Below are positions 8,939 through 47,360 of a DNA stretch of 61,587 nucleotides, one piece after another. Made by a program: the position numbers and the translations under genes. The DNA is from Candidatus Omnitrophota bacterium. GTDB lineage: Bacteria > Omnitrophota > Gorgyraeia > Zapsychrales > Fredricksoniimonadaceae. The DNA is taken from NCBI GenBank assembly GCA_015233165.1, contig JADFYF010000003.1:1-61587 (forward strand), written 5' to 3'. Within the stretch, counting starts at the first letter, position 1. Each line of letters starts with the position of its first letter. The notes beneath the pieces were generated by a model. That model saw only the letters and a program-made list of their open reading frames with translations, made no database searches and was not told the origin of the DNA.

Positions 8939-10375
8939 TTATTGGGAGGCCACCGGTGCAGAAGCTTTATTAGCTCCTATGGCATTTGCAGTGATAATAT
9001 GCGGTGTCAAGAAAATGATCAATTCTGTCTTTGTCTTATGATCATTGGACTTCTTAAATGCTTGACCGAAAAAAGGCATATCTCCCAAAAATGGAACCTT
9101 ACTCTTTGTTGTTTCTACAGTATCTTTGACTAAACCTGCAATAACCAGGGTTTGCCCATCACGAATCATGACCTTGGTTTTGGCCTCCTCGGTGCTAAGC
9201 TCAGGAATCTTAGCCGGTGTTGAGGGGTCTACTTGAACTAAAGCCGTGATTGCCGTAACCTTGGGATTCAAATCCAAGGTTACAAGTCCCGCATTATTAA
9301 TATGCGGGGTTACTTCAAAAATAACTCCAATATCAAGATAAGTATACCCAGACAACTGCATCTTCGCTTGCTCCTGATTGTAGGTATAACTTGGTAAAGG
9401 GTATTGAGAGCCTACTGTAATCTTAGCCGTTTGATTATCTAAGGTGACAATTCTGGGATTAGACAAAATATTTGTATCTGATCGTGTGCTTAATAATTCT
9501 AACGCTGCCGCTAAACCTGAAGTGTCCAGGGTTCCATAAGTAAATGGGGTTTTATTGGAAACACTTGGATCTCCGGGGGAAGGAATCGTAAAAGGGTCAA
9601 ACTTGTTATTAGATGTTGTATGAAATGGGAAGGTTGTAGGAATAATAGATCCGGAAGACTTTAAATTAACCGTCCAATCAACCCCCATATTCTCTGTATT
9701 ATTAAAATCTGTTTCAATAATCTTGGCCTCAATCAATACCTGAGGAGTTGGTGTGTCTAAATTATTTGTAACCTCTTCGATTAAATCGATATTGCTTTGC
9801 ACATCCCGAACAATTAACGTATTCGTCCGTTGATCAAAATTAATCTGCCCCCGGGAAGTCTTCATTTTACTGATGGAATCCACCACATCTGATGCCTTGG
9901 CAAAATTCAGCATAAATGTCCGCGTGGCTAGTGGTTCCTGATCCGCCAGTGTCTGTGCTTCTTCATGTCTCTTTTTGAGATTCTCTACCGTCGTTACTGT
10001 AATGATATTTCCTTTTCTTTCGTATCCATACCCATACGTCGAAAGAACAACTTCCAGGGCTTTTTGCCACGGCACATCATTAAGCTGAATGGTGACTGTT
10101 CCGACAACCTCAGGACCAACCACAATATTCATACTGCTCTTATAAGCCAAGACTTTCAGAACATTCTTAATATCCGCATCCTGAAAATCTAAACTAACCA
10201 CTCCTTCAGAAGTAGGCACGGCAACCGTTGTTGGAACGACTTCAGCAGAAACGGGAACCACGACAGTGGCGAGAGTTGTTGCGTTGGCTTGTTGTTGAGC
10301 AAGAACATTAACTGAACAAAATGTTACGACACCTAATAAAATAAGAGCACCGGACAAAAAGGTGTAACGACGCAT
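8939..10375 (-). CDS. pilQ: Type IV pilus secretin
   Basis: Signal peptide. Secretin C-domain with VPFLGDMPFFGQAFK...ELIIFLTPHII. Follows pilMNOP. Confidence 0.9.
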   Translation of the reverse strand: MRRYTFLSGALILLGVVTFCSVNVLAQQQANATTLATVVVPVSAEVVPTTVAVPTSEGVVSLDFQDADIKNVLKVLAYKSSMNIVVGPEVVGTVTIQLNDVPWQKALEVVLSTYGYGYERKGNIITVTTVENLKKRHEEAQTLADQEPLATRTFMLNFAKASDVVDSISKMKTSRGQINFDQRTNTLIVRDVQSNIDLIEEVTNNLDTPTPQVLIEAKIIETDFNNTENMGVDWTVNLKSSGSIIPTTFPFHTTSNNKFDPFTIPSPGDPSVSNKTPFTYGTLDTSGLAAALELLSTRSDTNILSNPRIVTLDNQTAKITVGSQYPLPSYTYNQEQAKMQLSGYTYLDIGVIFEVTPHINNAGLVTLDLNPKVTAITALVQVDPSTPAKIPELSTEEAKTKVMIRDGQTLVIAGLVKDTVETTKSKVPFLGDMPFFGQAFKKSNDHKTKTELIIFLTPHIITANAIGANKASAPVASQ

Positions 10376-10725
10376 TACAATCCCCCCTTTTTCAATCGCA
10401 CAGACAAATTTTCCTGTCCCTTAACTAAATCAACGTGATCATTAAAAATTGCAGCTACCGTATACGTTCCCACTTGATCCTTTACTTTCACAATCTTTCC
10501 GTTAATAATCGCCAAATTATGACCTGCTTTATCAATGACAACCCCTTCTAAATTCATATCCGTCGCTGTTATAGTCGAATCTGCTGATATGACTGTCCCG
10601 CTTGAAGAAATCAAAGGGCCAAAGGGATCTCTTTTGCCATGATCATCATAAACAAACGTCTTGACGTCCTCCGCGTAAACCAAACTCATACTTAAGAAAC
10701 TTAATAGGCATAAGAATTTTCTCAT
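10375..10725 (-). CDS. pilP: PilP-like pilus assembly protein
   Basis: 116-aa secreted protein positioned between pilO and pilQ; beta-rich C-terminus. The call rests mostly on position. Confidence 0.5.
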   Translation of the reverse strand: MRKFLCLLSFLSMSLVYAEDVKTFVYDDHGKRDPFGPLISSSGTVISADSTITATDMNLEGVVIDKAGHNLAIINGKIVKVKDQVGTYTVAAIFNDHVDLVKGQENLSVRLKKGGL

Positions 10726-11336
10726 TTTTTCTGCCCATCCGTATTCTTATCTGAAAGAACAACCTTCAAAGTTGCATTAATACTATGCAGCCGACTATCA
10801 CTGGTTCGATCTTCAATCGTTAAATTACTTAATGTAAAAAATAAATTGGATGATTCTAATTTATTAATAAAATGACCGAACATATGATAACCTGAAGTCG
10901 CTTGAATCACAATAGGTAAGGCATAATATTTGGTCGATTCAGAAGAAATTAAGGCCTGTTGAAACTCTGATTGAGGAGTGACTTGCTCAATCCTAACTTC
11001 ACATTCACTAGCGACACGAGAAACGTCTTCTACAACTGAAGAAACCTCCCCCAACGATCGAATCCTAGCATTGACTACCTCAAATTGAGATCGGGACAAT
11101 TTTAACCCATTGTTCATTTCACTGATGCGCTGTAAATTAGCTTTTAAATGATCCGTATTTTCCTGCATAGCCTGATTCTCACTATTAATTTTCTCAAAGG
11201 CTCTCCATTGAAAACCCAAAATCGTAAAAAAATCTAATAGAAAAAGCATCAATAAAACACTACCAAATACAGCATAACGGGCATTAACATCCCATTGATT
11301 AAACTTCTCTATGATCTGACTGAAATCAATTTTCAT
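10722..11336 (-). CDS. pilO: PilO-like pilus assembly protein
   Basis: Single TM segment plus coiled coil. Position between pilN and pilP; overlapping stop/start codons. Confidence 0.6.
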   Translation of the reverse strand: MKIDFSQIIEKFNQWDVNARYAVFGSVLLMLFLLDFFTILGFQWRAFEKINSENQAMQENTDHLKANLQRISEMNNGLKLSRSQFEVVNARIRSLGEVSSVVEDVSRVASECEVRIEQVTPQSEFQQALISSESTKYYALPIVIQATSGYHMFGHFINKLESSNLFFTLSNLTIEDRTSDSRLHSINATLKVVLSDKNTDGQKK

Positions 11337-11920
11337 TTTGTTTTTGCCGTAATTTTAAATTCAACAACCTCAGCAATTCCCTTTTTTATCCGACTAATGG
11401 AGTTGAGTTCAATAGCTATAAAATCTTTTGAAAAACCAACGTCTTTTTTAAGACTTGTAACAAAACTACCGACAACAGTAATTTCATCATGAAGCTTAGA
11501 ATAGGCACTACCCTCAATAATTAAAATTTTGTTATCCCATATAATTCTTCTAAACCAAATACCCTTAGGAGCAACATCACTTAAAATATTCAACTTCTGT
11601 GACCATACTAAAGCTTTCTTCGTTGTAATGTCACCAATCGTTGATAGTTTGGATCTTAAATCTTTAATCTCTTTACCTATAGAGTCCACGTTGTTCTTAT
11701 CCGGAACCATCCTCTGCCAGGTATCTTTATAGACAAGCTGTTGAATAAACTTAACAACATACCCGCCTATCAACACCAAATGAATAAATACTAAAAATGT
11801 TATAAAAATCCCGCCAACACCAAGAATAATTTCTTTGGGAAGATTAATAGATTTTAAAACCCCCACCCCGAGGTTCTCTTTCTTTCTTAAATGAATAGGA
11901 ACTAAATTAATTTCTATCAT
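11333..11920 (-). CDS. pilN: PilN-like pilus assembly protein
   Basis: N-terminal INLVP (INLLP-type) motif followed by one TM segment. Confidence 0.7.
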   Translation of the reverse strand: MIEINLVPIHLRKKENLGVGVLKSINLPKEIILGVGGIFITFLVFIHLVLIGGYVVKFIQQLVYKDTWQRMVPDKNNVDSIGKEIKDLRSKLSTIGDITTKKALVWSQKLNILSDVAPKGIWFRRIIWDNKILIIEGSAYSKLHDEITVVGSFVTSLKKDVGFSKDFIAIELNSISRIKKGIAEVVEFKITAKTK

Positions 11921-12969
11921 ACCTTTATTAACGCCAGTCCTATAGCAACACCCAATTGAGAGGAATATTTCTTAATGTCTGACTGAATAACATCAGGAGC
12001 TAGACGAAGATTAGCTAAAGGGTTCCAAATCTTAACAGGAATATTAAGACTTTTCTCAAAAATGCCTTCGATTCCTGCAAATGAGGAACCTCCCCCAACC
12101 AAAAACAGCTCTATAACAGGCGAGTTTCTTTCCGTCGTAAAGTAATCTAAAGATAAATGAATCTCTGCTGTCAAATTGTCAATGGAATCCTCACAGGCTT
12201 GCACCATTTCATTAAATTTATCTCCAGGAATTACTTTCAGTTCTTCTGCTCTAGCTAAAGAAACTCTCAACATATTCGCAATTTGTTGAGACATATCATG
12301 ACCACCCAGAAAAATATCTCTCGTGAATGAAGGTGAATTATTCCTATCAAGAATCATTAATGTACTGACTGAACCCCCAATGTCTAAAATAGCCCTAGCC
12401 CCCTCTGACTTTGAACCCTTCATTAATTTCTCAAAAGCATTAGCCGTTGCAATAGAATTGGTCGTCACATAACTTAATTCCATCCCCACTTCTTTAAACA
12501 TCTTTATACGGTCATCAACCAATTCTTTCTTAGCAGCAACGACCAACACAGAGGCTTTCTTCTCTTTACCTTGAGGATTAATAATATAACAATCGGTGTA
12601 AATTGCCTGCGGATCGAAAGGAAAATATTTATCAATTTCATAAATAAAAGACTTTCGAAGTTCTTCAATAGGCATGCGGGGCATATCTATATAACGAATC
12701 AAGGTGCCCTTCCCTGAAACAGACGAAATAGGAAATTGATCTTTAATATCCATACGAGCAACGACTCGCTTTATGGCCTCTTTAGCATCTGCTCCCTCAA
12801 TAGGTTCAAGAGCCCAATTTAATACTTCAAAATAATCCTTCCCACAGGCGATCTCTACTGCTTTGACAGAGCTTGTTCCAATATCAAAACCAATGACTGT
12901 TTTTCGGGATTGAGGAATAAATTGATCGATAAAATCTAGATATTTACTAAGAAATGATTGAAGTTGCAT
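11917..12969 (-). CDS. pilM: Type IV pilus assembly ATPase-fold protein PilM
   Basis: Actin-like fold with GFDIGTSSVKAVE. The start is probably the internal ATG at 12969 rather than 13017. Confidence 0.85.
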   Translation of the reverse strand: MQLQSFLSKYLDFIDQFIPQSRKTVIGFDIGTSSVKAVEIACGKDYFEVLNWALEPIEGADAKEAIKRVVARMDIKDQFPISSVSGKGTLIRYIDMPRMPIEELRKSFIYEIDKYFPFDPQAIYTDCYIINPQGKEKKASVLVVAAKKELVDDRIKMFKEVGMELSYVTTNSIATANAFEKLMKGSKSEGARAILDIGGSVSTLMILDRNNSPSFTRDIFLGGHDMSQQIANMLRVSLARAEELKVIPGDKFNEMVQACEDSIDNLTAEIHLSLDYFTTERNSPVIELFLVGGGSSFAGIEGIFEKSLNIPVKIWNPLANLRLAPDVIQSDIKKYSSQLGVAIGLALIKV

Positions 12970-13026
12970 ATAGTGCCATTGTAACAAAATTATTTTTCTT
13001 TGTAATAAAATAATCACTAATTATCA

Positions 13027-13085: not shown

Positions 13086-13487
13086 TTATGGTGTTAAAAC
13101 GCCACCCGTTGCAATGGTATAGGTTGTAGTACCCGAAGTACCTACCGTCACAGGAGTTGCTGTGATTGTATAACCAGCAACAGCAAACGTACAGGCAAAG
13201 GTATAACCAGAAACGGTTGTACCGCAATAAGACTTATTTAAATAAGCCGGAGTTGCACCTGTTAAGGCTGCTTCGTTGGTTGGATAATTACCATTGTTAG
13301 ATGTCGCAAAAGATTCTGCGGCTGTAGATTCAGCGCGAAGAGTTGCCTTAGCTAAAGCATCGTTTGCGGACATCTTAGCACGTAGTAAGTTAGGAATAGC
13401 AATCGCTGCTAATAAAGCGATAATTGCGACTACGATCATAATTTCAACCAATGTGAATCCTTTTGATTTTGATGTCATGTTTCTCAT
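13086..13487 (-). CDS. Type IV pilin (prepilin N-terminal cleavage/methylation domain)
   Basis: KG/FTLVEIMIVVAIIALLAAIAIPNL. C-terminal Cys pair CGTTVSGYTFAC. Confidence 0.9.
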   Translation of the reverse strand: MRNMTSKSKGFTLVEIMIVVAIIALLAAIAIPNLLRAKMSANDALAKATLRAESTAAESFATSNNGNYPTNEAALTGATPAYLNKSYCGTTVSGYTFACTFAVAGYTITATPVTVGTSGTTTYTIATGGVLTP

Positions 13488-13685: not shown

Positions 13686-14084
13686 TTAAGGAGTTAAAAC
13701 TCCTCCCGTAGTAATTGTATACGTTGTAGTTCCAGATGTTCCAACGGATACAGGAGTTGCTGTAATAGAGTAGCCTGTTGAACTAAAAGTACAGGCAAAA
13801 GTATATCCAGAAATTGTTGCCCCACAATAGGAGCTGTTTAAAAAAGCAGGGCTTGCCCCAGTTAACGAAGTTTCATTATTAGGATAAGTACTATTATTAG
13901 CAGATGCAAAAGATTCACTGGCGGTTGATATAGCCCGTAAGGTAGCCTTTGCTAAAGCATCATTGGAAGACATCTTGGCATGTACTAAATTGGGGATAGC
14001 AATCGCGGCTAGCAAGGCAATAATAGCAACCACGATCATAATTTCAACTAGAGTAAACCCTCGTTTAAAATGAAGATACTTCAT
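13686..14084 (-). CDS. Type IV pilin, tandem paralog
   Basis: RG/FTLVEIMIVVAIIALLAAIAIPNL. Cys pair CGATISGYTFAC. Same C-terminus, TGGVLTP, as the neighbouring pilin. Confidence 0.9.
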   Translation of the reverse strand: MKYLHFKRGFTLVEIMIVVAIIALLAAIAIPNLVHAKMSSNDALAKATLRAISTASESFASANNSTYPNNETSLTGASPAFLNSSYCGATISGYTFACTFSSTGYSITATPVSVGTSGTTTYTITTGGVLTP

Positions 14085-14343: not shown

Positions 14344-15369
14344 CTATTTTCTAAGTAAATCCTCCAATTCCACCTTGCGCTTATCCAGCCTTACCATTTC
14401 CTGCTGTAACTCCTGTAAATCAAACTTAAGGCTCTTTGTTTGAGATTTAAGTCTCTCCAATCCTGACTGCAGCCTAGACGTCTCTTCAACATCGGACTGC
14501 GTTAAACGTGCTTTTTTTGCTTTTTTCTGCAGTTGAACCACTAAAACCTTTAACTCATTTCTATTTTTTTCCAAATTACGTATACTTGACTCCAACTGAT
14601 CCATATCTTGCTCAGCCCCATCGATTGAAAGAGCTTTTGTGTTTGTAGGAGTGCCTAATTGAACAATTTCGTCCTGTAACTGGTTAATTTGTTTTTCCAA
14701 AACTTGCTTACGGGTAAGGTTTTCTTTATTTCCAGATATGATTGGGGGTAATTTATTTTGAAAATCCTGAATCTGCTCTTGTAAAAGAACTTGCCGTTCC
14801 TGACTTTCGGAGATCATTTTCAAGGCAGCCAACTTTTCCTTCTTTTTTTGTTGAACAATATCCAATAATTCCGGAGAATCCCCATCTAAAGTCACCGGTT
14901 TCCCTGGAACAAGAATACGCTCTATCTGAGCCTCTACCTTCTCCTGTTCTTTTTGCTTTGCTGTCAAACTATCCCCTTCAGTTTTAATCTGATCCTGAAG
15001 TTCTTTAATCTTGCTATCAGAATCAGCTATATTTTTCTCCAACTGTTCGATATGTTTTGCTTTAGCAATATTAGGTTGCTCCATTCTTAATTTAACACTA
15101 TTCAACTCCTCGCTGTCTTTGTTTACTTTCTGTAAGGTCATCTGCAAAACCTTTAACTGACCCTTAATCTGACTATTCTTTATTGCCATAGAATCATTGG
15201 AAGCTGACATCTCCACAGCGGTATTATTAAGTTCACTAAGGCTTTGGGTTAGTCCAGTAGAAATATACTCCTGGGTAGTTTTTTCCAAAGCATAAGAAAA
15301 AGACGGACTTAAAATAACTACGATAAAAATAAATTTAATTAAAATTTTCATAAATCTCCTTCCCTCCAA
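14344..15369 (-). CDS. Secreted coiled-coil protein (hypothetical)
   Basis: Signal peptide followed by about 300 aa of Q/E/K/L-rich heptad-like sequence. Lies between pilC and the pilins. Confidence 0.6.
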   Translation of the reverse strand: MEGRRFMKILIKFIFIVVILSPSFSYALEKTTQEYISTGLTQSLSELNNTAVEMSASNDSMAIKNSQIKGQLKVLQMTLQKVNKDSEELNSVKLRMEQPNIAKAKHIEQLEKNIADSDSKIKELQDQIKTEGDSLTAKQKEQEKVEAQIERILVPGKPVTLDGDSPELLDIVQQKKKEKLAALKMISESQERQVLLQEQIQDFQNKLPPIISGNKENLTRKQVLEKQINQLQDEIVQLGTPTNTKALSIDGAEQDMDQLESSIRNLEKNRNELKVLVVQLQKKAKKARLTQSDVEETSRLQSGLERLKSQTKSLKFDLQELQQEMVRLDKRKVELEDLLRK

Positions 15370-15390: not shown

Positions 15391-16608
15391 TTAATGCAAA
15401 GCTGATGTTAAATTTAAAATAGGCAAGAATAAAGCCACCACTATAAAACCAACCACAATACCTAACACAGCAATAATCAAAGGCTCAATCAGTTTAGTTA
15501 ATCCCTCAACAGCAGCATCCACCTGATCATCATAAAATTCAGCAACCTTAGCCATCATTTTCTCTAACTGTCCCGACTTCTCTCCAATCGCAATCATACG
15601 GGTCACCATCGGAGGGAAAACCTTACTTTTAGACAAAGGAACTGTAATGCTTTCGCCCTCTTTAACACTCAGCTTGATATCGTCAACCAATAGTTCAATA
15701 ACACGATTCCCGCAAGTCTTCCCGACGATATCTAGCGTTTCAAGAATAGATACCCCGCTAGAAGAAAGTGTCGAAAATGTCCGGCAAAAGCGACTGACAG
15801 ACACCTTACAAATTAAATCTCCGAATATGGGCAATTTCAAAGCCCAAGTGTCCATCTGTAGCTTCCCCTGATCTGTAGCCCGATATTTAATGCCACCAAC
15901 CACCAAGGAAATAATGACAACAACAAGTAAAAAGAACTGATGCTGCAATACATTACTAAAATCAATCAACATTTGAGTCATCGCTGGTAGCTTCGATCCT
16001 AAGGAGTCATAAATGGTCGCAAAGGTAGGAACAACTTTGATAATAAGCCCCATGGTAATGATCAAGGCCATACTGACAACAACAGCCGGATAAATCATAG
16101 CCGACTGCACCTTTTGTTTGAGCTTCTCAGATTTTTCCAAATATAAAGCCACTCGCTCCAAAATAGTATTTAAAATACCCCCTGACTCCCCCACCCGTAA
16201 CATATTAATGTAAAGTTGATCAAAAACCTTAGGATGCTTAGCAAAAGCTGATGAAAGACTACTTCCCAATTGAATGCTCTGACAAATTTCTGTAACCGTT
16301 TGTTTCAAATTCTCATTAGCAACCTGCTCTGCTAAAGCATCTAAGCACTGTAAAATAGGTATCCCTGCGTCCACCATGGTGGCAAATTGACGAGTAAAAA
16401 CAACAATATCTTCGGCCTTTATTTTCTTCCCCTTGTGAGCCTTGGGCTGATCTGACTTTGTAGCCGAATGCTTCTCTTCTTCAATAGTGACAATAATTAA
16501 GTTGCGTTTACGTAACTCCGCAACAATCATAGATTCATTATCAGCAGACATCTTGCCTTTAATGCTTTGTCCTTCCTGATCACGAGCTATATATTTATAA
16601 ATTGGCAT
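15391..16608 (-). CDS. pilC: Type IV pilus platform protein (GspF/PilC family)
   Basis: 405 aa with duplicated GspF-type cytoplasmic domains and three TM segments. Confidence 0.9.
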   Translation of the reverse strand: MPIYKYIARDQEGQSIKGKMSADNESMIVAELRKRNLIIVTIEEEKHSATKSDQPKAHKGKKIKAEDIVVFTRQFATMVDAGIPILQCLDALAEQVANENLKQTVTEICQSIQLGSSLSSAFAKHPKVFDQLYINMLRVGESGGILNTILERVALYLEKSEKLKQKVQSAMIYPAVVVSMALIITMGLIIKVVPTFATIYDSLGSKLPAMTQMLIDFSNVLQHQFFLLVVVIISLVVGGIKYRATDQGKLQMDTWALKLPIFGDLICKVSVSRFCRTFSTLSSSGVSILETLDIVGKTCGNRVIELLVDDIKLSVKEGESITVPLSKSKVFPPMVTRMIAIGEKSGQLEKMMAKVAEFYDDQVDAAVEGLTKLIEPLIIAVLGIVVGFIVVALFLPILNLTSALH

Positions 16609-16617
16609 AATTTGAAA

Positions 16618-17040
16618 TCAATAATGATGAGCGATCGCTTCTTCAATTTCAGATTTGGTGGATATAAATGTAGCGATACGGCACTTCGTTAAAGCTTCCA
16701 GTTCAGATTTCTTTTGTTCCGACAAAGGGTTAACCATAACAAGACTTAAAACACGTCCAATACGATCTAGAGGAATAATCTTCTCCTTTTGAGCCAACTC
16801 CTTTGGAATAAGCTCCAGAACCTTAGGATCTATCAAATATTTGTTAATAGCGATGTAGGGTAATTCACACTGTACGACTAAAGCTACGACAATATCTCTT
16901 TCTTCAATATAGCCAAGTTTAACGAGGATTTCACCAACAAGTCCACCCTCTTTCTTCTGAACTTCCAAAGCTTGATCTAATTGTTCCTGAGTAATGAGCT
17001 TACGTTTAATTAAGATCTCACCGATTAAAATCTTTTCCAT
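16618..17040 (-). CDS. Stand-alone GspE/MshE N-terminal (T2SSE_N / MshEN-like) domain protein
   Basis: Two 24-residue motifs separated by a 5-residue spacer: LIGEILIKRKLITQEQLDQALEVQ-KKEGG-LVGEILVKLGYIEERDIVVALVVQ. No ATPase domain. Confidence 0.7.
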   Translation of the reverse strand: MEKILIGEILIKRKLITQEQLDQALEVQKKEGGLVGEILVKLGYIEERDIVVALVVQCELPYIAINKYLIDPKVLELIPKELAQKEKIIPLDRIGRVLSLVMVNPLSEQKKSELEALTKCRIATFISTKSEIEEAIAHHY

Positions 17041-17055
17041 ACTGACTCCCCTGTT

Positions 17056-18759
17056 CTATTCGTCGTCAGACGAAGAAATACGGTAGACTTCCGTGAGTGT
17101 CGTCTCTCCCTGACACATCTTATCAAGACAATCATCGAAAAGCAATTTCATCCCTTGTTTTTCCTGAGCATAACGTGCAATCTCCGCAGAGGAAGCTCCC
17201 CGAAGCAACAGCTCCCTGACGTGATCATCAATCACAAGAATCTCAGTAATTCCCATACGCCCTAAATAGCCTGTATTCCGACAACGATTACACCCTTTAC
17301 CTTCGTAGAAAATAGTATCCGGCTTAATTTTATACTTAATCTTCTCCAAAGCTTTTTCGGGCACAATGACAGGAGCCTTACAATAAGGACAAATACGACG
17401 ACAAAGTCTCTGAGCACAAACTAAAAGCAAACTAGATGCCACTAAGAAAGGTTCCAGCCCCATATCCACCAAACGAGTCAAGGCTCCTGCAGCATCATTA
17501 GTATGCAAAGTAGACAACACCAGCTGTCCTGTTAAAGACGCCTTAATGGCAATATCGGCCGTTTCATTGTCTCGAATTTCACCCACCATGACAATATCTG
17601 GAGACTGACGCAACACCGATTTTAACCCCATAGCAAAATTAAAACCAATATCCTGCTTCACCTCAATCTGAGTCAATCCATCAATCAAGTATTCAACGGG
17701 ATCTTCAATCGTGATGATATTACGCTCTGAAGTGTTCAGTTTATTAATAATAGAATACAGCGTCGTAGACTTACCACTTCCTGTTGGACCCGTCACCAGC
17801 ACCATTCCAAAAGGCTTATGAACCGTTTCTTCCAATATTGTCATTGACCGTTTAGAAAAACCCAATTTATTTAACCCAACAGACAGATTGCTTTTATCCA
17901 AAATACGCATAACCACCTTTTGAGCAAAGGTTGTAGGCAACAAAGATAAACGAAAATCAATTTCTCCTGTAGGCATACGCATTTTAAAACGCCCATCCTG
18001 AGGCATCTGGAAAGATGTAATATCCACACGAGCCATGATTTTAATACGAACAATGACAGAGTTTTGACTTTCCACAGGTACAGTAAGGATATCCTGTAAA
18101 ATACCGTCGATTCTATACCGCACCCTCATCCCCTCCGCCGAAGGTTCCATATGAATATCCGACGCTCTTTGACGAATAGCTTCTTTAATAATCAGATTCA
18201 CCATTCTAATAATTGGCGCATGATCTCCTGAGTCCGAATCGATATTCATCTGTTGGAACTGCTCATCAATAATGGATAATTCCACATCAGGCATATTTTC
18301 CGTGACCTGAGCAATCGTTTGGGCAACCGAAGCATAATATTGATTCTGAATATTTAAAATCTGAGAATACGACGCCAACACCATCTCTATCGTCTTTCCT
18401 GTTAAGCTTCGCAGGTCATCTAAAATATAAACATTCAAAGGATCAGAAACAGCTACCGTCAAGGTCTCGGCAAAACTAGACAAAGGAACAATTCCATATT
18501 GGCGGGCAAATTTCTCAGGAACAATATCTCGAAGATTAGGATCTAAACGATACTTATTTAGATCAATGGATGGAATACGTAGTTCCTTGACCAACAATAT
18601 CAGCAAGTCCTGTTCCGAAATAATTCCCTGCTTGATGATTGCTCTAGTTAGCCCCATATTCTTATCCATACTGGCATAAACTAGGGCATCAAAATCCGAA
18701 GGATTGATACTAGGCAATTTACGAAGCGCTTTTAAAATTTTATCTCGGGTTGATTCCAT
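17056..18759 (-). CDS. PilB/GspE-family secretion ATPase, paralog 2
   Basis: Walker A GPTGSGKST, Walker B/Asp box DIVMVGEIRD, tetracysteine CPYCK...CNRC. Confidence 0.9.
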   Translation of the reverse strand: MESTRDKILKALRKLPSINPSDFDALVYASMDKNMGLTRAIIKQGIISEQDLLILLVKELRIPSIDLNKYRLDPNLRDIVPEKFARQYGIVPLSSFAETLTVAVSDPLNVYILDDLRSLTGKTIEMVLASYSQILNIQNQYYASVAQTIAQVTENMPDVELSIIDEQFQQMNIDSDSGDHAPIIRMVNLIIKEAIRQRASDIHMEPSAEGMRVRYRIDGILQDILTVPVESQNSVIVRIKIMARVDITSFQMPQDGRFKMRMPTGEIDFRLSLLPTTFAQKVVMRILDKSNLSVGLNKLGFSKRSMTILEETVHKPFGMVLVTGPTGSGKSTTLYSIINKLNTSERNIITIEDPVEYLIDGLTQIEVKQDIGFNFAMGLKSVLRQSPDIVMVGEIRDNETADIAIKASLTGQLVLSTLHTNDAAGALTRLVDMGLEPFLVASSLLLVCAQRLCRRICPYCKAPVIVPEKALEKIKYKIKPDTIFYEGKGCNRCRNTGYLGRMGITEILVIDDHVRELLLRGASSAEIARYAQEKQGMKLLFDDCLDKMCQGETTLTEVYRISSSDDE

Positions 18760-18760
18760 A

Positions 18761-20485
18761 TTAATCCGTTGCTGTTAAACGAACAACCTCTTCTAAGCTG
18801 GTTAACCCTCGACAAGCTTTAAACACAGCATCTTCTCTCATCGTCTTCATTCCCTGTTCACGAGCACAGGCCTTAATTTCCATTTCTGAAGCCCTAGACA
18901 GAATTAACTCTTTAATTTTTGCCGTTAAAGACAACGTTTCTGTTATCCCCACCCTACCTTTATACCCACTCTTAAAACACTTCTCACATCCCTTAGGCCT
19001 ATAAAATGTCATACAATGCCCTGGCATCAGCTGATCCACATGAAATTCTTCAATCGCTTCTTTTGGAAGAGTATACGCTTCACGACAATGAGAACAGATA
19101 CGTCTAACTAATCGCTGAGCAACAATCCCGATCACTGAAGAACAAATCAGGAATGGTTCTATCCCCATATTAATCATACGGGTAATAGAGCCTGCTGCTG
19201 TTGTCGTATGCAAGGAGGATAATACCAAATGTCCGGTTAAAGCCGCTTTAACAGCAATATCCAAGGTATCGGAATCACGAATTTCTCCGATGAGAATCAC
19301 ATCAGGATCTTGCCGCAGAATAGATCGCAGAGCTGCCGGAAAGGTCAAGCCCACTTCCGTACGGATATTCACCTGATTCAAACCCTTCATCTGAAATTCA
19401 ACAGGATCCTCAACAGTAATAATATTTTTCCCCGGACTATCAATGTGCTTCAAAATAGAGTACAAGGTTGTTGTCTTACCGCTGCCAGTTGGTCCACAGG
19501 CTAAAATCAACCCATGCGGCCTATGACAACATTCTTTTAAACGAATCAATGAGTCTGCTTCAAAACCCAGCTTATCAACGTCTAGCATATCCAAATTCTT
19601 ATCTAAGACGCGAAGAACAATCTTCTCCCCCAAGGCTGTCGGCAAAACATTCACGCGAAAATCGACTTCCTTTCCATGGGAGTCAATACTACGAAAACGA
19701 CCATCCTGAGGCAGGCGATGCTCAGCAATATCCAAATTAGAAATAACCTTAATACGAGAAATGATTGAAAAATGTAACGCTTTTGCCAAATGATCGGCTT
19801 CTCGAAGAAAACCATCGATCCGATAACGGATGCGCAATGAGTTCTGCATAGGTTCAATAAATATGTCACTTGCCTTTGCAATAATAGCCTGCTGAATAAT
19901 TGTATTAGTTAAAGTAATGATAGGAGCCTCATGAAAAAGACTTTCAACCTCCCTTTTATCCGACGGACCTGCCCCCTCTTTAACTAACTCCAAATCCTCA
20001 GACTCCTTAATATCCTTAAGGATTTCTTCTAAATTATCCTTAGCATCTTCTCCTGCGGAGTAAAACTTATCGATGGTGAGTTTAATATCCTTAGTCCTAG
20101 CCATCACAACATTAATCGACAGACCGCTGACCGCCCGAACATTATCGATAGCAACAACATTCATAGGATCAACAATGGCGATCGTTAATTGATCTCCGAT
20201 TTTTGATAAAGGAATTAATTGATAGGACAAAGCGACAGATTTTGGAACCAACTTAACTAATTCTGGATCGATTTTGAACAAAGATAAATTAATGATAGGA
20301 ATTTTAAGAGCTTCACTGAGGGCTACAGATAAAACATCTTCAGAAATGAGTTTAAGCTTAAGAAGAACGTTGCTTAACTCTCCCCCAAAAGACTTTTGCT
20401 CATTTAAGGCTCGATCGATGTCAGAGGCAGATACAAGATTGTCACGCAGCAGAATTTCTTTGAGACATTTGTTTAAAGGGACCAT
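18761..20485 (-). CDS. pilB: Type IV pilus assembly ATPase
   Basis: Walker A GPTGSGKTT, DVILIGEIRD, tetracysteine CSHC...CEKC, T2SSE_N-type N-terminus. Confidence 0.9.
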   Translation of the reverse strand: MVPLNKCLKEILLRDNLVSASDIDRALNEQKSFGGELSNVLLKLKLISEDVLSVALSEALKIPIINLSLFKIDPELVKLVPKSVALSYQLIPLSKIGDQLTIAIVDPMNVVAIDNVRAVSGLSINVVMARTKDIKLTIDKFYSAGEDAKDNLEEILKDIKESEDLELVKEGAGPSDKREVESLFHEAPIITLTNTIIQQAIIAKASDIFIEPMQNSLRIRYRIDGFLREADHLAKALHFSIISRIKVISNLDIAEHRLPQDGRFRSIDSHGKEVDFRVNVLPTALGEKIVLRVLDKNLDMLDVDKLGFEADSLIRLKECCHRPHGLILACGPTGSGKTTTLYSILKHIDSPGKNIITVEDPVEFQMKGLNQVNIRTEVGLTFPAALRSILRQDPDVILIGEIRDSDTLDIAVKAALTGHLVLSSLHTTTAAGSITRMINMGIEPFLICSSVIGIVAQRLVRRICSHCREAYTLPKEAIEEFHVDQLMPGHCMTFYRPKGCEKCFKSGYKGRVGITETLSLTAKIKELILSRASEMEIKACAREQGMKTMREDAVFKACRGLTSLEEVVRLTATD

Positions 20486-20506
20486 GGATTCTTCGTGAAA
20501 GAGGCA

Positions 20507-20956
20507 TTAGACAGCTTCATAATAACGCTTAATTGCTGCTTTAATATCCGTAGCTGTACTGACAAACGCTTGCACCATACACGCCGTTGCCGACTCGACA
20601 TCTTCCAAGGCCTTCGTGTTCAAAGGGTTAGCCATGGCTAGGGTCAAACTCTTACCAATCTTATCAATAGGAACTAAGCAATGTCTTTTGCAAAGCTCTA
20701 CAGGAACAGTTGTTAAAACTTCAGGGGCAATTTCATAGTTACCTAACGGTAAAAAAGGAAACCCATACTGAGAGGTAAGCGCCTGCACGATAATCTCTTC
20801 AGTGGCATATCTAAGCTCAACTAAGGCTTCTCCAAAAAGAATATTCTTTTCCTTCTGGACCTTGAGAGCCTCCTCCAATTGACCATGGGTAATCAAACCC
20901 CTTTCAATCAAAATTTCCCCTAATTGCTTATTAACAACCTTACGAAAGTTTTTCAT
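20507..20956 (-). CDS. Stand-alone GspE/MshE N-terminal (MshEN-like) domain protein
   Basis: QLGEILIERGLITHGQLEEALKVQ-KEKNI-LFGEALVELRYATEEIIVQALTSQ. 149 aa, no ATPase domain. Confidence 0.7.
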   Translation of the reverse strand: MKNFRKVVNKQLGEILIERGLITHGQLEEALKVQKEKNILFGEALVELRYATEEIIVQALTSQYGFPFLPLGNYEIAPEVLTTVPVELCKRHCLVPIDKIGKSLTLAMANPLNTKALEDVESATACMVQAFVSTATDIKAAIKRYYEAV

Positions 20957-23286: not shown

Positions 23287-24783
23287 TTAGATTCTTTTTG
23301 AAAGACGAGTCACCTTAAATAATTTAGCAGCTAATGAAGATTTCAGAGCTTTGCCTTCAAATCGCCATTTCCAATTATTAACCTTAGTTGCGGGAGTATT
23401 CATACGAGCATCTGCTCCCAAACCTAATATATCTACCAATGGAACGATAACCATATTCGCTTTTGATTTCATCAAAACCTCAATCATCTGCCAATGCAAT
23501 TGACGAGGATTAGGCTTCAAATCAAGTACAGCTTTAATATTAGCCCTCTCGTGCTCCTTAGACTCCTGATAATACCAACCTTGAACCGTATTATTATCAT
23601 GGGTCCCTGTGTACGCCACACAATTCGCCGGATAATTTTTAGGCACATGAGGATTTTTCTTAGGGTCTCCATTAAAACCAAACAACATAACCCTCATCCC
23701 TGGAAAACGAAATTGGTTCATTAATTTAACAACATCACTGCTTGCTTCTCCCAGATCCTCGGCAATCAAAGGCAGGGTTTTAAATTGTTTTTGCAAGGCT
23801 TTAAAAAAATCATCTCCTGGCCCCTTAACCCACTGACCAAAGACAGCTAATTTTTCATGGGAAGGAATCTGCCAAAAAGACGAAAATCCACGAAAATGAT
23901 CAATACGTAAACAATCAAATAAAGACAAGTTATTTTTAATACGATTCACCCACCAAATATACTTGGCCTTCTTTAATTTGGCCCAATCATAAACAGGATT
24001 TCCCCAACGCTGACCGGTTTTCGAAAAATAATCTGGAGGACATCCGCTAACAAACTTCAATCGACCATCTTTATCTAATTTAAAATACTGACGATTGCAC
24101 CAAACATCAGCGCTGTCAAAATTTACATAAATAGGAATATCTCCCACAATAGAAATACCTCTTTCATTGGCATAGGTCTTTAACTTATGCCATTGATAGA
24201 AAAACAAAAACTGAATAAATTTGACCTCTTCAATTTTCTTAGCATGTTTCTTGTTAAAATCCGCCAAGGCTTTAGGCTGGCGGTTCTTAAACGCGGCAGG
24301 CCATTGATCCCAACACTCTCCTGCAAAAACCTCCTTAGCCACTAGAAAAGTCGCAAAATCATTCAGCCAATTTCTTTGTTCCGCCACAAACAATTCATAA
24401 GCACCATTATAAGATTTGTCAGAAAATCTTTTAAAAGCTCGTTCAAACACCTTCTGTTTAAAAGCAGAAACCTTAACAAAATCCACTTGATCTTGCTCTG
24501 TTTCTGCAACTCGTTTAACATGAGAAGGTTTAATTAGCCCATCCATGACTAATAAGTCAGGACTTATAAATAAAGGGTTCCCAGCAAAAGCAGAAAAACA
24601 ACTATAAGGAGAATGCCCATTAATGCCATCGGTAGGATTAATCGGTAGAATCTGCCAATAAGTCTGACCTGCACTTTTAAGAAAATCAACAAAGGCATAA
24701 GCATGAGGACCTAAATCGCCAATACCATAAACGGAGGGTAAAGAACTAATATGAAGCAATACGCCACTGGATCTTAATCTCAT
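23287..24783 (-). CDS. malQ: 4-alpha-glucanotransferase (GH77 amylomaltase)
   Basis: RIDHFRG, AEDLG and TGTHDN catalytic-region motifs. Confidence 0.9.
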   Translation of the reverse strand: MRLRSSGVLLHISSLPSVYGIGDLGPHAYAFVDFLKSAGQTYWQILPINPTDGINGHSPYSCFSAFAGNPLFISPDLLVMDGLIKPSHVKRVAETEQDQVDFVKVSAFKQKVFERAFKRFSDKSYNGAYELFVAEQRNWLNDFATFLVAKEVFAGECWDQWPAAFKNRQPKALADFNKKHAKKIEEVKFIQFLFFYQWHKLKTYANERGISIVGDIPIYVNFDSADVWCNRQYFKLDKDGRLKFVSGCPPDYFSKTGQRWGNPVYDWAKLKKAKYIWWVNRIKNNLSLFDCLRIDHFRGFSSFWQIPSHEKLAVFGQWVKGPGDDFFKALQKQFKTLPLIAEDLGEASSDVVKLMNQFRFPGMRVMLFGFNGDPKKNPHVPKNYPANCVAYTGTHDNNTVQGWYYQESKEHERANIKAVLDLKPNPRQLHWQMIEVLMKSKANMVIVPLVDILGLGADARMNTPATKVNNWKWRFEGKALKSSLAAKLFKVTRLSKRI

Positions 24784-27233: not shown

Positions 27234-27254
27234 AAATTAATCTATCCTGAAGAA

Positions 27255-27557
27255 CTATCTTTTCACTCTTTTTTGAGTCTTAGCAGGTGTACTAGGTATG
27301 GCACCTTGAATGTCATTATTCATGTTATACATTAAACTATTAAAAGACTGTATTTCCGTATCTACTAATGATACGAAGGTGCGGCGATTCTTGATGGAAT
27401 AATTAATCTTATCCTCACGGGCTAGCCAACCCAAAGCCTGAAAAACAACCTGTTCATTTTCTTTCAGGTCTTGGGCCAGCTTAGAAACACCGTACTCCCC
27501 ATTTTGACCCAAAAATCTCCATGTTTTTCCTGCTACTTCAATTATTTTCTCTTTCAT
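27255..27557 (-). CDS. Small winged-helix-like protein (hypothetical)
   Basis: 100 aa with KLAQDLKENEQVVFQALGWLAREDKI, which resembles wHTH-type proteins. Overlaps the glgB stop by 20 nt. Confidence 0.45.
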   Translation of the reverse strand: MKEKIIEVAGKTWRFLGQNGEYGVSKLAQDLKENEQVVFQALGWLAREDKINYSIKNRRTFVSLVDTEIQSFNSLMYNMNNDIQGAIPSTPAKTQKRVKR

Positions 27558-29538: not shown

Positions 29539-29617
29539 AGGCGTTTATTATATAGTTGTTACGAAGGAGCTTCAATACAATTAACAGAAGAATTAACGAT
29601 GAATGAGAATTTCTGAA

Positions 29618-30583: not shown

Positions 30584-30588
30584 AATAA

Positions 30589-32607: not shown

Positions 32608-32608
32608 A

Positions 32609-34144: not shown

Positions 34145-34213
34145 AAGAGGCCTTTCCGTAACAATGCTCTAAATTATAACACATCCTATCCTCGTCTGTA
34201 ATGATACTTTTCC

Positions 34214-42473: not shown

Positions 42474-42503
42474 AACACTCCTTATAAAACGACACGCCTA
42501 TGA

Positions 42504-45743: not shown

Positions 45744-45745
45744 TC

Positions 45746-46597: not shown

Positions 46598-46649
46598 AAC
46601 ATCTCCTTAACTAGATGAATTGGTTTACCTTTATAATATAAAAATTATA

Positions 46650-46677: not shown

Positions 46678-46682
46678 TTGTG

Positions 46683-47342: not shown

Positions 47343-47360
47343 AACACTTCTCCTTGGGGT

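What the first reader, a model, noticed from the sequence alone, without database searches (positions are those of the whole stretch)
16618..20956. Two tandem PilB-type ATPases bracketed by two stand-alone MshEN-like domain proteins
The gene order on the minus strand is: 149-aa protein, PilB (574 aa), PilB paralog (567 aa), 140-aa protein, PilC. Both small proteins consist only of the GspE/MshE N-terminal fold. Each carries the tandem 24-residue motif with a 5-residue spacer described for the c-di-GMP-binding MshEN domain (xLGxxLLxxGLLxxxxLxxxLxxQ). An example is QLGEILIERGLITHGQLEEALKVQ-KEKNI-LFGEALVELRYATEEIIVQALTSQ. The equivalent N-terminal regions of the two ATPases are more degenerate: CLKEILLRDNLVSASDIDRALNEQ in PilB, and only a partial match in the paralog. 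This suggests that second-messenger sensing may be split off into separate subunits, one per ATPase. The leading Arg of the published motif is not conserved in either small protein, so binding is not assured. No PilT-type retraction ATPase is in the window.
Basis: partly seen in the sequence, partly recalled or inferred. Interest (0 to 1): 0.7.

Follow-up and report, generated by a model that had tools for sequence, protein, structure and literature searches.

The report
Free-standing c-di-GMP sensor domains beside pilus motors

Summary
On the minus strand lie a 149-aa MshEN-only protein, PilB1 (574 aa), PilB2 (567 aa), a 140-aa MshEN-only protein and PilC. This is the head of a complete T4aP cluster: pilins, PilMNO and a secretin.

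The small ORFs are real genes. Each has hundreds of full-length homologues of 140-155 aa, and every named one is Candidatus Omnitrophota. The gene order recurs in more than 20 species.

All 24 MshENa and 15 MshENb orthologues tabulated keep Gly3 and Gln24 in both 24-residue motifs. None of about 40 adjacent PilB N-domains keeps the motif-I glycine, whose mutation abolishes binding in Vibrio MshE.

The missing leading Arg is not disqualifying. Published Thermus PilF GSPII-B work shows that Leu there gives 2 nM binding.

In divergent Omnitrophota the same operon carries GGDEF and HD-GYP genes, which ties it independently to c-di-GMP.

"One per ATPase" is not supported, because MshENb is absent or replaced in some lineages that keep both ATPases.

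Binding and partners are untested.

Verdict: a new variant of a known kind, namely MshEN-mediated c-di-GMP control of a pilus motor, here apparently acting in trans. It is moderately interesting.

The parts
20507..20956 (-). MshENa: 149-aa stand-alone MshEN/GSPII domain protein (four-helix MshEN_N subdomain plus T2SSE_N1-like subdomain)
   Evidence: Pfam MshEN 66.8 bits. NF053729 55.8 bits against a cut-off of 38. 986 homologues of about 149 aa at 70-84% identity, all named ones Omnitrophota. AF2 pLDDT 87.7; Foldseek top hits are PilF GSPII-A and MshE-c-di-GMP.
20768..20926 (-). 53-residue tandem motif of MshENa (residues 11-63): QLG...Q / KEKNI / LFG...Q
   Evidence: L2, G3, G10, L17, L21 and Q24 of motif I, and L1, G3, L21 and Q24 of motif II, are invariant or nearly so in the orthologues.
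18761..20485 (-). PilB1: PilB/GspE-type ATPase, 574 aa, with an N-terminal MshEN domain that lacks Gly3 in both motifs (K9, S38) and Gln24 in motif II (A59)
   Evidence: T2SSE 437 bits, MshEN 70 bits. TIGR02538 617.7 bits, below the equivalog cut-off of 675.65. Walker A/B, Asp box, His box and 2xCxxC intact. Motif table.
17056..18759 (-). PilB2: paralogous PilB/GspE-type ATPase, 567 aa, 46% identical to PilB1 over the ATPase part. Its start lies 1 nt after the PilB1 stop. Its N-domain shows no recognisable c-di-GMP motif.
16618..17040 (-). MshENb: 140-aa stand-alone MshEN/GSPII domain protein, 43% identical to MshENa
   Evidence: Pfam MshEN 63.9 bits. NF053729 60.4 bits. 726 homologues of 140-151 aa, named ones Omnitrophota. 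AF2 pLDDT 81.7; Foldseek top hits are MshE-c-di-GMP (5htl) and PilF GSPII-B K167L (8pe0).
16870..17028 (-). 53-residue tandem motif of MshENb (residues 5-57): LIG...Q / KKEGG / LVG...Q
   Evidence: It fits the extended consensus (R/K/L)LGxx(LVI)(LVI)xxG..L...L..Q, apart from I/V at position 2 and K at position 10 of motif I.
15391..16608 (-). PilC platform protein (405 aa)
   Evidence: T2SSF 225 bits. PilC and GspF models score about 400 bits, all below their equivalog cut-offs (700, 700, 424).
14344..15369 (-). 341-aa coiled-coil protein with an N-terminal hydrophobic segment. It holds a conserved position after PilC but a poorly conserved sequence (25-37% identity).
   Evidence: No Pfam hit. 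Positional conservation.
13686..14084 (-). Type IV pilin (132 aa)
   Evidence: N_methyl motif.
13086..13487 (-). Type IV pilin paralogue (133 aa)
   Evidence: N_methyl motif.
8939..13017 (-). PilM (11917-13017), PilN (11333-11920), PilO (10722-11336), a 116-aa ORF in the PilP position (10375-10725) and a PilQ-type secretin (8939-10375)
   Evidence: Pfam PilM_2, PilN, PilO, Secretin/Secretin_N/STN.

Best explanation
The locus is the motor end of a type IVa pilus operon of a Candidatus Omnitrophota bacterium. It encodes two catalytically intact, probably co-translated PilB-type ATPases and two free-standing MshEN (GSPII) domain proteins, MshENa and MshENb.

Shown:
- The small proteins are real, phylum-wide, strongly constrained genes locked into this operon.
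- They have the complete MshEN fold.
- They retain the residues that contact c-di-GMP in solved MshEN and GSPII-B complexes, whereas the ATPases' own N-domains have lost the motif-I glycine.

Inferred:
- MshENa and MshENb are trans-acting c-di-GMP receptor subunits. They would be the split equivalent of the extra in-cis GSPII-B and GSPII-C domains of Thermus PilF, or of the (MshEN)2-4-PilB fusions in other phyla.
- Through their T2SSE_N1-like C-subdomain they dock on the motor or stator (PilB1/PilB2, PilM or PilC). This is the module that binds GspL in T2SS, and the PilF N-terminus binds PilM.
- The docking would couple the local c-di-GMP level to pilus extension.

The sign of the effect (activation or relief of inhibition) and the direct partner are unknown.
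For: Real genes:
- 986 and 726 full-length homologues, and 3010 with a broader profile.
- The order RodA-MshENa-PilB1-PilB2-(MshENb)-PilC recurs in more than 20 Omnitrophota species.
- Synonymous sites are saturated while dN is 0.14-0.23, similar to PilB and PilC.
- The small proteins are 70-83% identical among orthologues, against 39-65% (PilB1) and 30-65% (PilB2) for the ATPases' own N-domains.

Operon structure: gaps of 21, 1, 15 and 9 nt between the genes.

Fold: AF2 models plus Foldseek hits to MshE-c-di-GMP, PilF GSPII-A and GSPII-B at probability 1.00.

Motif:
- NF053729 is passed by 18/18 MshENa and 18/18 MshENb.
- Gly3 and Gln24 are present in both motifs in 24/24 and 15/15 orthologues, but 0/21 PilB1 and 0/20 PilB2 have Gly at motif-I position 3.
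- In VcMshE, G11L gives no detectable binding, G40I a 72-fold loss and Q61A a 12-fold loss (Wang 2016, Supplementary Table 1).
- Because the PilB N-domains keep the same fold without these residues, the invariance in the small proteins is not explained by folding alone.
- Leu or Lys at position 1 is compatible with 2-6 nM binding (PMC11731258).

Association with c-di-GMP genes inside the same operon:
- REC-HD-GYP in the MshENb slot (L025).
- HAMP-GAF-GGDEF upstream of MshENa (L028, L030, L032).
- An intact REC-GGEEF, a REC-HD-GYP and AGDEF-STAND-HEAT proteins between PilB2 and MshENb (L029, L031).

Precedent for extra MshEN domains attached to PilB: (MshEN)2, 3 and 4-T2SSE fusions (Wang 2016, Supplementary Table 4; P0241 and P0242 from Nitrospirota).
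Against: - No binding or interaction has been measured.
- A motif match does not guarantee binding. PilF GSPII-A stayed a non-binder even after its consensus was restored, because of an Ncap-stabilised, elongated helix alpha1 and inter-subdomain contacts (PMC12002112).
- The MshENa model is closest to GSPII-A (TM 0.87) and is predicted with a long alpha1 spanning residues 2-18, although residues 1-6 have low confidence and no ideal Ncap motif is evident.
- MshENa has an invariant Gln at motif-I position 1, which is outside both the published set (R/K/L) and the relaxed set [RKPN].
- Reintroducing Ser at motif-II position 1 abolished binding in the resurrected GSPII-A construct.
- Motif II of MshENa has R/K at position 10 instead of Gly.
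- The profile NF053729 also accepts 17/19 PilB1 N-termini.
- PilF GSPII-C binds with Glu at motif-II position 3, so loss of Gly in motif II alone is not decisive (and PMC11731258).
- The window has no GGDEF, EAL or HD-GYP gene, and the close relatives L001-L024 have none in the cluster.
- Two of the operon-linked GGDEF types are degenerate (GDHEF, GDHSF).
Confidence: 0.55

Rival explanations
1. The small proteins are c-di-GMP-independent structural or adaptor subunits. They would be extra GSPII/N1 domains that bridge the PilB1-PilB2 motor to the PilM ring or PilC, like the non-binding GSPII-A of PilF or the N1 domain of GspE that binds GspL. On this view the conserved motif residues serve protein-protein contacts.
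For: The best Foldseek match of MshENa is the non-binder GSPII-A. The Arg residues of the original motif are absent. Many GSPII domains do not bind c-di-GMP (PMC12002112; XpsE in Wang 2016). No c-di-GMP enzyme lies in the window or in the closest relatives' clusters.
Against: Gly3 and Gln24 are kept in both motifs in every orthologue, while the same fold in PilB1 and PilB2 has lost them. All 36 tested members pass NF053729. L/L at position 1 matches the highest-affinity GSPII-B variant. GGDEF and HD-GYP genes are repeatedly embedded next to these genes in other lineages.
Confidence: 0.25
2. The small proteins bind c-di-GMP but do not act on the pilus ATPases. They might instead be a local c-di-GMP buffer or sink, or adaptors for another target such as the GGDEF-STAND-HEAT protein or a transcription factor.
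For: Isolated MshEN_N domains bind the ligand on their own, and MshEN is fused to many unrelated outputs (Supplementary Table 4; the MshEN-DnaA-like protein P0288).
Against: The position between and beside pilB1, pilB2 and pilC is strictly conserved across the phylum, with gaps of 1-21 nt. The full T2SSE_N1-like C-subdomain is retained; this is the part that mediates motor-stator contacts in T2SS and T4P. Natural (MshEN)n-PilB fusions exist.
Confidence: 0.1
3. The small proteins sense a different nucleotide, for example 3'3'-cGAMP or another cyclic dinucleotide, because position 1 of motif I is Gln or Leu rather than Arg.
For: VcMshEN binds cGAMP weakly (Wang 2016, figure legend).
Against: The backbone-amide recognition of guanine O6/N7 by Gly3 and the following residue is preserved. 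The enzymes linked to the operon are GGDEF and HD-GYP, i.e. c-di-GMP enzymes.
Confidence: 0.05
4. The small ORFs are fragments of a disrupted longer ATPase gene, or annotation artefacts.
For: None was found. JGI's automatic name 'type IV pilus assembly protein PilB' for these 149-aa proteins reflects only domain similarity.
Against: Hundreds of homologues have the same length and the same stop codon. They occur in more than 20 species and are under purifying selection. They have their own start codons with SD-like sequences. Both adjacent PilBs are full-length with their own N-domains.
Confidence: 0.01

Closest known systems
Vibrio cholerae MshE N-terminal domain (MshEN, PDB 5HTL) and other c-di-GMP-binding PilB/GspE N-domains (M. 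xanthus PilB, C. perfringens PilB2, C. thermophilum PilB)
   Same: Same two-subdomain fold. Same tandem 24-residue motifs with a 5-residue spacer. Same association with a T4P extension ATPase. Matches by sequence and by structure.
   Different: In those systems the domain is covalently attached to the ATPase. Here it is a separate polypeptide, the covalently attached copies lack the motif-I glycine, and position 1 is Q/L or L/L instead of R/R.
Thermus thermophilus PilF with three tandem GSPII domains (A non-binding; B at 6 nM; C at about 0.3 uM), and the (MshEN)2-4-T2SSE fusions of Clostridia, Deinococcus-Thermus and Nitrospirota
   Same: Several MshEN/GSPII domains per pilus motor, a mix of binding and non-binding copies, and Leu or Lys at position 1 in the high-affinity copy. 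The PilF N-terminal region contacts PilM.
   Different: Those domains are in cis on one ATPase. Here four domains are spread over four proteins (two free and two on paralogous ATPases), with the free ones predicted to bind.
FimX-PilZ-PilB (Xanthomonas, Pseudomonas): trans-acting c-di-GMP receptor complex that binds the PilB N-terminal domain
   Same: The concept is the same: c-di-GMP is sensed by a separate protein that acts on an extension ATPase whose own N-domain does not bind the ligand (PMC8389850; 7lko among the Foldseek hits).
   Different: Those receptors have a different fold (degenerate EAL plus a PilZ adaptor) and are encoded elsewhere in the genome. Here the putative receptor is a copy of the ATPase's own N-domain, encoded in the operon.
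Pseudomonas aeruginosa PA3740 (MshEN_N plus a highly diverged T2SSE_N1; binds c-di-GMP and affects swarming) and cyanobacterial (MshEN_N)2 proteins such as cce_1044
   Same: MshEN-type c-di-GMP receptors that lack an ATPase or other enzymatic output domain (Wang 2016 and its Supplementary Table 4).
   Different: They are not encoded between pilB genes, their C-subdomain is diverged or absent, and no link to a tandem PilB pair is described.
Acinetobacter baylyi PilB/TfpB: two extension ATPases serving one T4P machine
   Same: Two PilB-family ATPases apparently serving a single PilC/PilMNOQ system.
   Different: TfpB is phylogenetically distinct and is not a tandem neighbour. Here the paralogues are adjacent, 1 nt apart, and conserved as a pair across a phylum. 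NF053534 (TfpB) scores 443 and 470 bits, far below its cut-off of 850.

Membership tests
MshEN / GSPII domain (Pfam PF05157; c-di-GMP-binding subtype NCBIfam NF053729) | Profile match to the T2SSE_N1-type C-subdomain (PF05157) above the gathering score | tested here: met
   66.8 bits (149 aa) and 63.9 bits (140 aa) against a cut-off of 23.1.
MshEN / GSPII domain (Pfam PF05157; c-di-GMP-binding subtype NCBIfam NF053729) | 53-residue c-di-GMP motif model NF053729 above its cut-off of 38 bits | tested here: met
   55.8 and 60.4 bits. 18/18 and 18/18 orthologues pass at E<=1e-9. Caveat: 17/19 PilB1 N-termini also pass, with weaker scores.
MshEN / GSPII domain (Pfam PF05157; c-di-GMP-binding subtype NCBIfam NF053729) | Two 24-residue motifs separated by 5 residues, with L2, G3, L17, L21 and Q24 in each | tested here: met
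   MshENa residues 11-34 / 35-39 / 40-63 and MshENb residues 5-28 / 29-33 / 34-57. G3 and Q24 are present in both motifs in all orthologues. Positions 2 and 17 hold conservative hydrophobic residues (F/I/V, I) in some motifs.
MshEN / GSPII domain (Pfam PF05157; c-di-GMP-binding subtype NCBIfam NF053729) | Position 1 of each motif is R, extended to R/K/L by PMC11731258 | tested here: inconclusive
   MshENb is L/L, which is within the extended consensus. MshENa is Q/L: motif II is within it, and the invariant Gln of motif I is not in the published set.
MshEN / GSPII domain (Pfam PF05157; c-di-GMP-binding subtype NCBIfam NF053729) | Four-helix N-subdomain plus alpha/beta C-subdomain | tested here: met
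   AF2 secondary structure shows 4 helices followed by an alpha/beta unit. Foldseek probability is 1.00 to 5htl, 8pdk, 8pe0 and 9g1w. The relative subdomain orientation in MshENb is uncertain (pTM 0.54).
MshEN / GSPII domain (Pfam PF05157; c-di-GMP-binding subtype NCBIfam NF053729) | Measured binding of c-di-GMP | not testable with these tools
   Needs ITC, DRaCALA or DSF on purified protein.
Type IVa pilus assembly ATPase PilB (TIGR02538 equivalog) | Score above the equivalog cut-off of 675.65 | tested here: not met
   PilB1 scores 617.7 and PilB2 589.5. The GspE model scores 566 and 576 against a cut-off of 630. Both are PilB/GspE-family ATPases, but neither reaches a curated equivalog threshold.
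Type IVa pilus assembly ATPase PilB (TIGR02538 equivalog) | T2SSE ATPase core with Walker A, Asp box, Walker B with catalytic Glu, His box and a tetracysteine Zn site, plus an N-terminal N1 (GSPII) domain | tested here: met
   All motifs are present in both proteins. T2SSE scores 437 and 435 bits, with MshEN domains alongside. The context of PilC, pilins, PilMNO and a secretin fits.
Multi-GSPII extension ATPase of the Thermus PilF type | Two or more GSPII domains on the same polypeptide as the ATPase | tested here: not met
   Each PilB has one N-domain. The extra domains are separate ORFs with conserved stop codons in all relatives.
PilT-type retraction ATPase | T2SSE core without an N1 domain, about 350 aa, with the AIRNLIRE motif | tested here: not met
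   There is none in the window. One with AIRSLIRE lies inside the homologous operon of L032, so the phylum does possess PilT.

The most novel reading that the evidence does not exclude
Omnitrophota may run their type IVa pilus with a hetero-oligomeric PilB1-PilB2 motor whose own N-domains are blind to c-di-GMP. Two detachable MshEN subunits would then act as a c-di-GMP-dependent clutch. By occupying or vacating PilM/PilC docking sites they would decide which ATPase engages, or whether the motor runs in extension or reverse. This would be a new mode of motor control, and in lineages without PilT it could substitute for a dedicated retraction ATPase.
Probability: 0.1. Interest if true: 0.8.

Novelty: new variant of a known kind. 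Interest (0 to 1): 0.55.

Why it matters
How the N1/GSPII domain of extension ATPases couples c-di-GMP to pilus assembly is still unresolved. The domain is flexible and poorly resolved in structures, and the review says its functional role is poorly understood. A natural system in which the ligand-binding copy is a separate 140-150-aa protein would let binding, docking and ATPase regulation be dissected with separate components.

The finding also adds a defined and very abundant architecture, thousands of database members, to the short list of widespread c-di-GMP receptors. It gives a first handle on second-messenger control of the T4aP that is thought to mediate host attachment in the uncultivated, largely ultra-small Omnitrophota.

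The conserved tandem PilB pair bears on the open question of why some systems need two extension ATPases.

Tried and rejected
(1) Rosetta-stone fusion. The Verrucomicrobiota locus L027 seemed to encode MshEN fused to PilC. Inspection showed MshEN plus the N2 part of a PilB paralogue joined in frame to the C-terminal half of PilC. This is most likely a deletion or MAG misassembly, so it was not used as evidence.

(2) dN/dS. Synonymous sites are saturated (NG86 gave undefined dS for the small genes). Only the qualitative statement of strong purifying selection is made.

(3) c-di-GMP genes in the window. A regex and a tblastn with GGDEF and HD-GYP domains from related loci found nothing.

(4) Using NF053729 alone to separate binders from non-binders. 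It also accepts most PilB1 N-termini, so the argument rests on specific residues with published mutational data.

(5) Taxonomic origin of distant stand-alone MshEN clusters. The listing of cluster members returned almost no names. The profile search showed that all named members are Omnitrophota, so occurrence outside the phylum remains open.

(6) Promoter and terminator scan. Counts were at chance level and only a weak promoter-like site lies upstream of MshENa. It was not used.

(7) Complex prediction of small protein plus ATPase, PilM or PilC. It is not possible with the single-chain predictor available.

(8) Literature searches for a described stand-alone MshEN next to pilB found none. The Omnitrophota papers mention T4aP but not these genes or c-di-GMP.

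Full report
**1. Observation**

- A 149-aa ORF at 20507-20956, called MshENa here.
- A 574-aa ORF at 18761-20485, PilB1.
- A 567-aa ORF at 17056-18759, PilB2.
- A 140-aa ORF at 16618-17040, MshENb.
- A 405-aa ORF at 15391-16608, PilC.

Pfam finds only the MshEN domain (PF05157) in the two small proteins. It finds MshEN + T2SSE in the two large ones and T2SSF in the 405-aa protein.

The genes are packed with gaps of 21, 1, 15 and 9 nt. The small genes have ATG starts preceded by SD-like AAGG and GGGGAG.

Downstream follow a coiled-coil protein, two pilins, PilM, PilN, PilO, a small ORF and a secretin. This is therefore the head of a complete T4aP cluster.

A tblastn of the ATPase core and of both small proteins against the whole 61.6-kb window finds only these four genes. 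There is no PilT and no further MshEN copy.

Both PilBs carry intact Walker A, Asp box, Walker B with catalytic Glu, His box and two CxxC pairs. They are 46% identical over the ATPase part.

**2. The small ORFs are real, conserved genes of one phylum**

A search with MshENa returned 986 proteins. The 120 listed are nearly all 149-150 aa (range 146-157) and 71-84% identical to the query, and every named one is Candidatus Omnitrophota/Omnitrophica.

A search with MshENb returned 726 proteins of about 140-151 aa from the same phylum.

A profile of more distant stand-alone members returned 3010 proteins. Again every named hit is Omnitrophota.

In 23 genome loci and several metagenome contigs the order RodA-MshENa-PilB1-PilB2-(MshENb)-PilC recurs, always with separate reading frames.

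Synonymous sites between the window and its closest relatives are saturated, while dN is only 0.14-0.23, like PilB and PilC.

Among orthologues the free proteins are 70-83% identical. The N-terminal 150 residues of PilB1 and PilB2 are only 39-65% and 30-65% identical.

The refutation condition "fragments of a disrupted ATPase gene in relatives" is therefore not met.

**3. Fold**

AlphaFold2 models show four helices followed by an alpha/beta unit (MshENa pLDDT 87.7 and pTM 0.80; MshENb pLDDT 81.7 and pTM 0.54).

Foldseek against the PDB gives probability 1.00 to several structures:
- the MshE-c-di-GMP complex (5htl);
- PilF GSPII-B in its c-di-GMP-bound state (8pdk, 8pe0);
- PilF GSPII-A (9g1w);
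- the Xanthomonas PilB N-domain (7lko);
- XpsE-N (2d27, 2d28).

For MshENa the best match is the non-binding GSPII-A (TM 0.87). Its helix alpha1 is modelled from residue 2 to residue 18, although residues 1-6 are below pLDDT 50.

For MshENb the best matches are 5htl and the K167L GSPII-B complex, and alpha1 begins at the Ile-Gly of the motif.

**4. Contact residues**

An alignment of all four domain classes from up to 25 Omnitrophota loci, with reference sequences taken from the PDB alignments, gives a categorical pattern.
- MshENa: Gly at position 3 and Gln at position 24 of both motifs in 24/24. Position 1 is Q (rarely T, Y or H) in motif I and L in motif II.
- MshENb: Gly/Gly and Gln/Gln in 15/15. 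Position 1 is L in motif I and L, I, F or V in motif II.
- PilB1: motif-I position 3 is K (or I, T) in 21/21. Motif-II position 3 is S, N or T. Motif-II position 24 is A, S or G.
- PilB2: motif-I position 3 is L, F, I or R in about 20/20, and motif-II position 24 is E (R in L025).

The published measurements make these differences meaningful.
- In VcMshEN, G11L gives no detectable binding, G40I a 72-fold loss, Q61A a 12-fold loss and L10A a 36-fold loss (Supplementary Table 1 of PMC5013675).
PilF GSPII-B has K167/L196 and binds at 6 nM.
- Its K167L variant binds at 2 nM and was crystallised with the ligand.
- The authors extended the consensus to (R/K/L)LG... (PMC11731258).

MshENb is exactly L/L. 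MshENa shares the L of motif II, and its invariant Gln in motif I is untested.

The PilB N-domains keep the same fold without Gly3 and Gln24. The invariance of these residues in the free proteins therefore points to a ligand constraint rather than a folding one.

**5. Cautions on binding**

The NCBIfam motif model NF053729 is passed by 18/18 MshENa and 18/18 MshENb. It is also passed by 17/19 isolated PilB1 N-termini (the window's at 38.8 bits against a cut-off of 38) and by 3/19 PilB2 N-termini. Profile membership therefore does not separate PilB1.

PilF GSPII-C binds although motif II has Glu at position 3, so only the motif-I glycine argument is strong.

PilF GSPII-A shows that a near-perfect motif can still be inactive, because of an Ncap-locked, elongated alpha1 and tight subdomain contacts. 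In that background, Ser at motif-II position 1 abolished binding (PMC12002112).

Apo GSPII-B also has an elongated alpha1, which unfolds on binding. MshENa shows no ideal Ncap sequence. Its predicted long helix is therefore a warning, not a disproof.

**6. Independent link to c-di-GMP**

The window itself has no GGDEF, EAL or HD-GYP gene. Its close relatives have RodA directly upstream of MshENa.

In more divergent Omnitrophota, where MshENa/b are 52-65% identical to the window's, the same operon is a hotspot for c-di-GMP genes.
- L025 has a REC-like-HD-GYP protein (HD_5, 1e-34; HHERFDGTGYP) exactly in the MshENb slot.
- L028 and L030 have HAMP-GAF-GGDEF between RodA and MshENa. The active site is degenerate (GDHEF, GDHSF), and L030 has an RSVD I-site.
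- L029 has a 1375-aa GGDEF(AGDEF + RxxD)-STAND-HEAT protein between PilB2 and MshENb.
- L031 has an intact REC-GGEEF cyclase with an I-site, a REC-HD-GYP and the GGDEF-STAND-HEAT protein between PilB2 and MshENb.
- L032 has HAMP-GAF-GGDEF, a PilT-like ATPase (352 aa, AIRSLIRE) and GGDEF-STAND-HEAT upstream of MshENa-PilB1-PilB2-PilC.

This shows that the phylum uses c-di-GMP and repeatedly places its turnover genes beside these receptor-like proteins.

**7. What is not supported**

"One per ATPase" is not supported.
- MshENb is absent from a subclade (L001, L008, L014), with only about 70 nt between pilB2 and pilC.
- It is absent from L032 and from the contig that carries P0249.
- It is replaced by an HD-GYP protein in L025.
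- Both ATPases persist in all of these lineages.

In the P0249 lineage the MshENa-position protein carries two MshEN_N subdomains. MshENa is the constant partner and MshENb is accessory.

**8. Mechanism**

Shown: an operon-encoded set of four MshEN domains for one T4aP machine. Two are free and motif-intact. Two are fused to paralogous, catalytically intact ATPases and lack the motif-I glycine.

Inferred from established knowledge:
- In GspE the N1 subdomain binds the cytoplasmic, actin-like domain of GspL (2bh1 and 4pht appear among the Foldseek hits).
- The N-terminal GSPII region of PilF binds PilM.
- c-di-GMP binding to MshE and PilB N-domains promotes extension.
- Natural fusions with 2-4 MshEN domains on one PilB exist (P0241 and P0242 from Nitrospirota).

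The most economical reading is that MshENa and MshENb are the detached equivalents of such extra domains. They would be trans-acting c-di-GMP receptors that dock on the motor or stator and tune extension by a PilB1/PilB2 motor. The 1-nt spacing of pilB1 and pilB2 and their conservation as a pair suggest a mixed or cooperating motor.

I put about 0.55 on this overall. That breaks down to about 0.7 that MshENb binds c-di-GMP, about 0.5-0.55 for MshENa, and about 0.5 that the target is the pilus motor or stator.

**9. Comparison with the known, and novelty**

c-di-GMP control of T4P and T2SS ATPases through MshEN in cis is well known. Multi-GSPII ATPases, MshEN fusions to many outputs, and ATPase-less receptors such as PA3740 or (MshEN_N)2 proteins are also described. 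Trans-acting receptors of another fold (FimX-PilZ) are known too.

The exhaustive representative search shows that single-domain MshEN proteins and tandem-MshEN proteins are common in sequence databases (17,631 hits at E<=1e-3).

I found no description of three things:
- a full-length free-standing MshEN protein encoded inside a pil operon;
- the reciprocal pattern of free copies intact and ATPase copies degenerate;
- the phylum-wide tandem PilB pair.

I therefore class the finding as a new variant of a known kind. It is of moderate interest, readily testable in vitro, and relevant to an uncultivated phylum whose pili are thought to mediate host attachment.

Noticed in passing
L031:1858-7968; L029:3873-8000; L032:1317-7983; L028:2332-3768; L030:2549-3964; L025:11959-13035: In divergent Omnitrophota the homologous pilus operon carries c-di-GMP genes. 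These are an intact REC-GGEEF cyclase, REC-HD-GYP phosphodiesterases, HAMP-GAF-GGDEF proteins with degenerate GDHEF/GDHSF sites, and a conserved giant GGDEF(AGDEF + I-site)-STAND ATPase-HEAT protein of about 1370 aa with unknown role.
   Followed up: partly
L032:2793-3851: A PilT-like ATPase (352 aa, Walker A GATGSGKST, AIRSLIRE motif) sits inside the homologous operon of one Omnitrophota lineage. The phylum therefore has retraction ATPases, even though none is in this window.
   Followed up: partly
L027:7995-9686: In a Verrucomicrobiota MAG, one ORF joins the MshEN and N2 domains of a PilB paralogue in frame to the C-terminal half of PilC. This is probably a deletion or assembly artefact rather than a natural fusion.
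   Followed up: partly
L022:11896-12378: The MshENb orthologue of this species has a 23-residue insertion (KKDRSLRMNTQGPASLDDKLEND) in place of the 5-residue spacer between the two motifs. This would test how strict the spacer length is.
   Followed up: no
proteins P0288 and P0308: Unusual MshEN architectures turned up in the representative search. One is MshEN fused to a DnaA-like AAA+ module (named DnaA by JGI). The other is a coiled-coil + TM + MshEN protein. The protein encoded just after pilC in this window is also an N-terminally anchored coiled-coil protein.
   Followed up: no
window 14344-15369 (-): A 341-aa coiled-coil protein with an N-terminal hydrophobic segment and no Pfam hit. 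A gene of this kind always follows pilC in close relatives, but its sequence is only 25-37% identical, which is much faster evolution than the rest of the operon.
   Followed up: partly
window 38125-39282 (-): A ParA/MinD-type ATPase (AAA_31, 187 bits) is fused to a C-terminal glycogen-binding module (AMPK1_CBM/CBM48). This is an unusual combination. It lies in a window that also encodes GH57, GH77, a branching enzyme and a ROK kinase.
   Followed up: no
window 23287-35422 and 41820-52423 (-): The neighbourhood is dominated by storage and phosphate genes: glycogen enzymes (GH57 at 24780-27233, GH77 at 23287-24783, branching enzyme at 27538-29538), polyphosphate kinase and Ppx (30589-34144), and two Pst-type phosphate ABC transporter sets with PhoU and porins (41820-52423).
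   Followed up: partly
window 18761-20485 and 17056-18759 (-): Neither PilB reaches the curated equivalog cut-off of the PilB, GspE or TfpB models (617.7 and 589.5 against 675.65; 566 and 576 against 630; 443 and 470 against 850). The tandem pair is a distinct lineage-specific branch of the family.
   Followed up: partly
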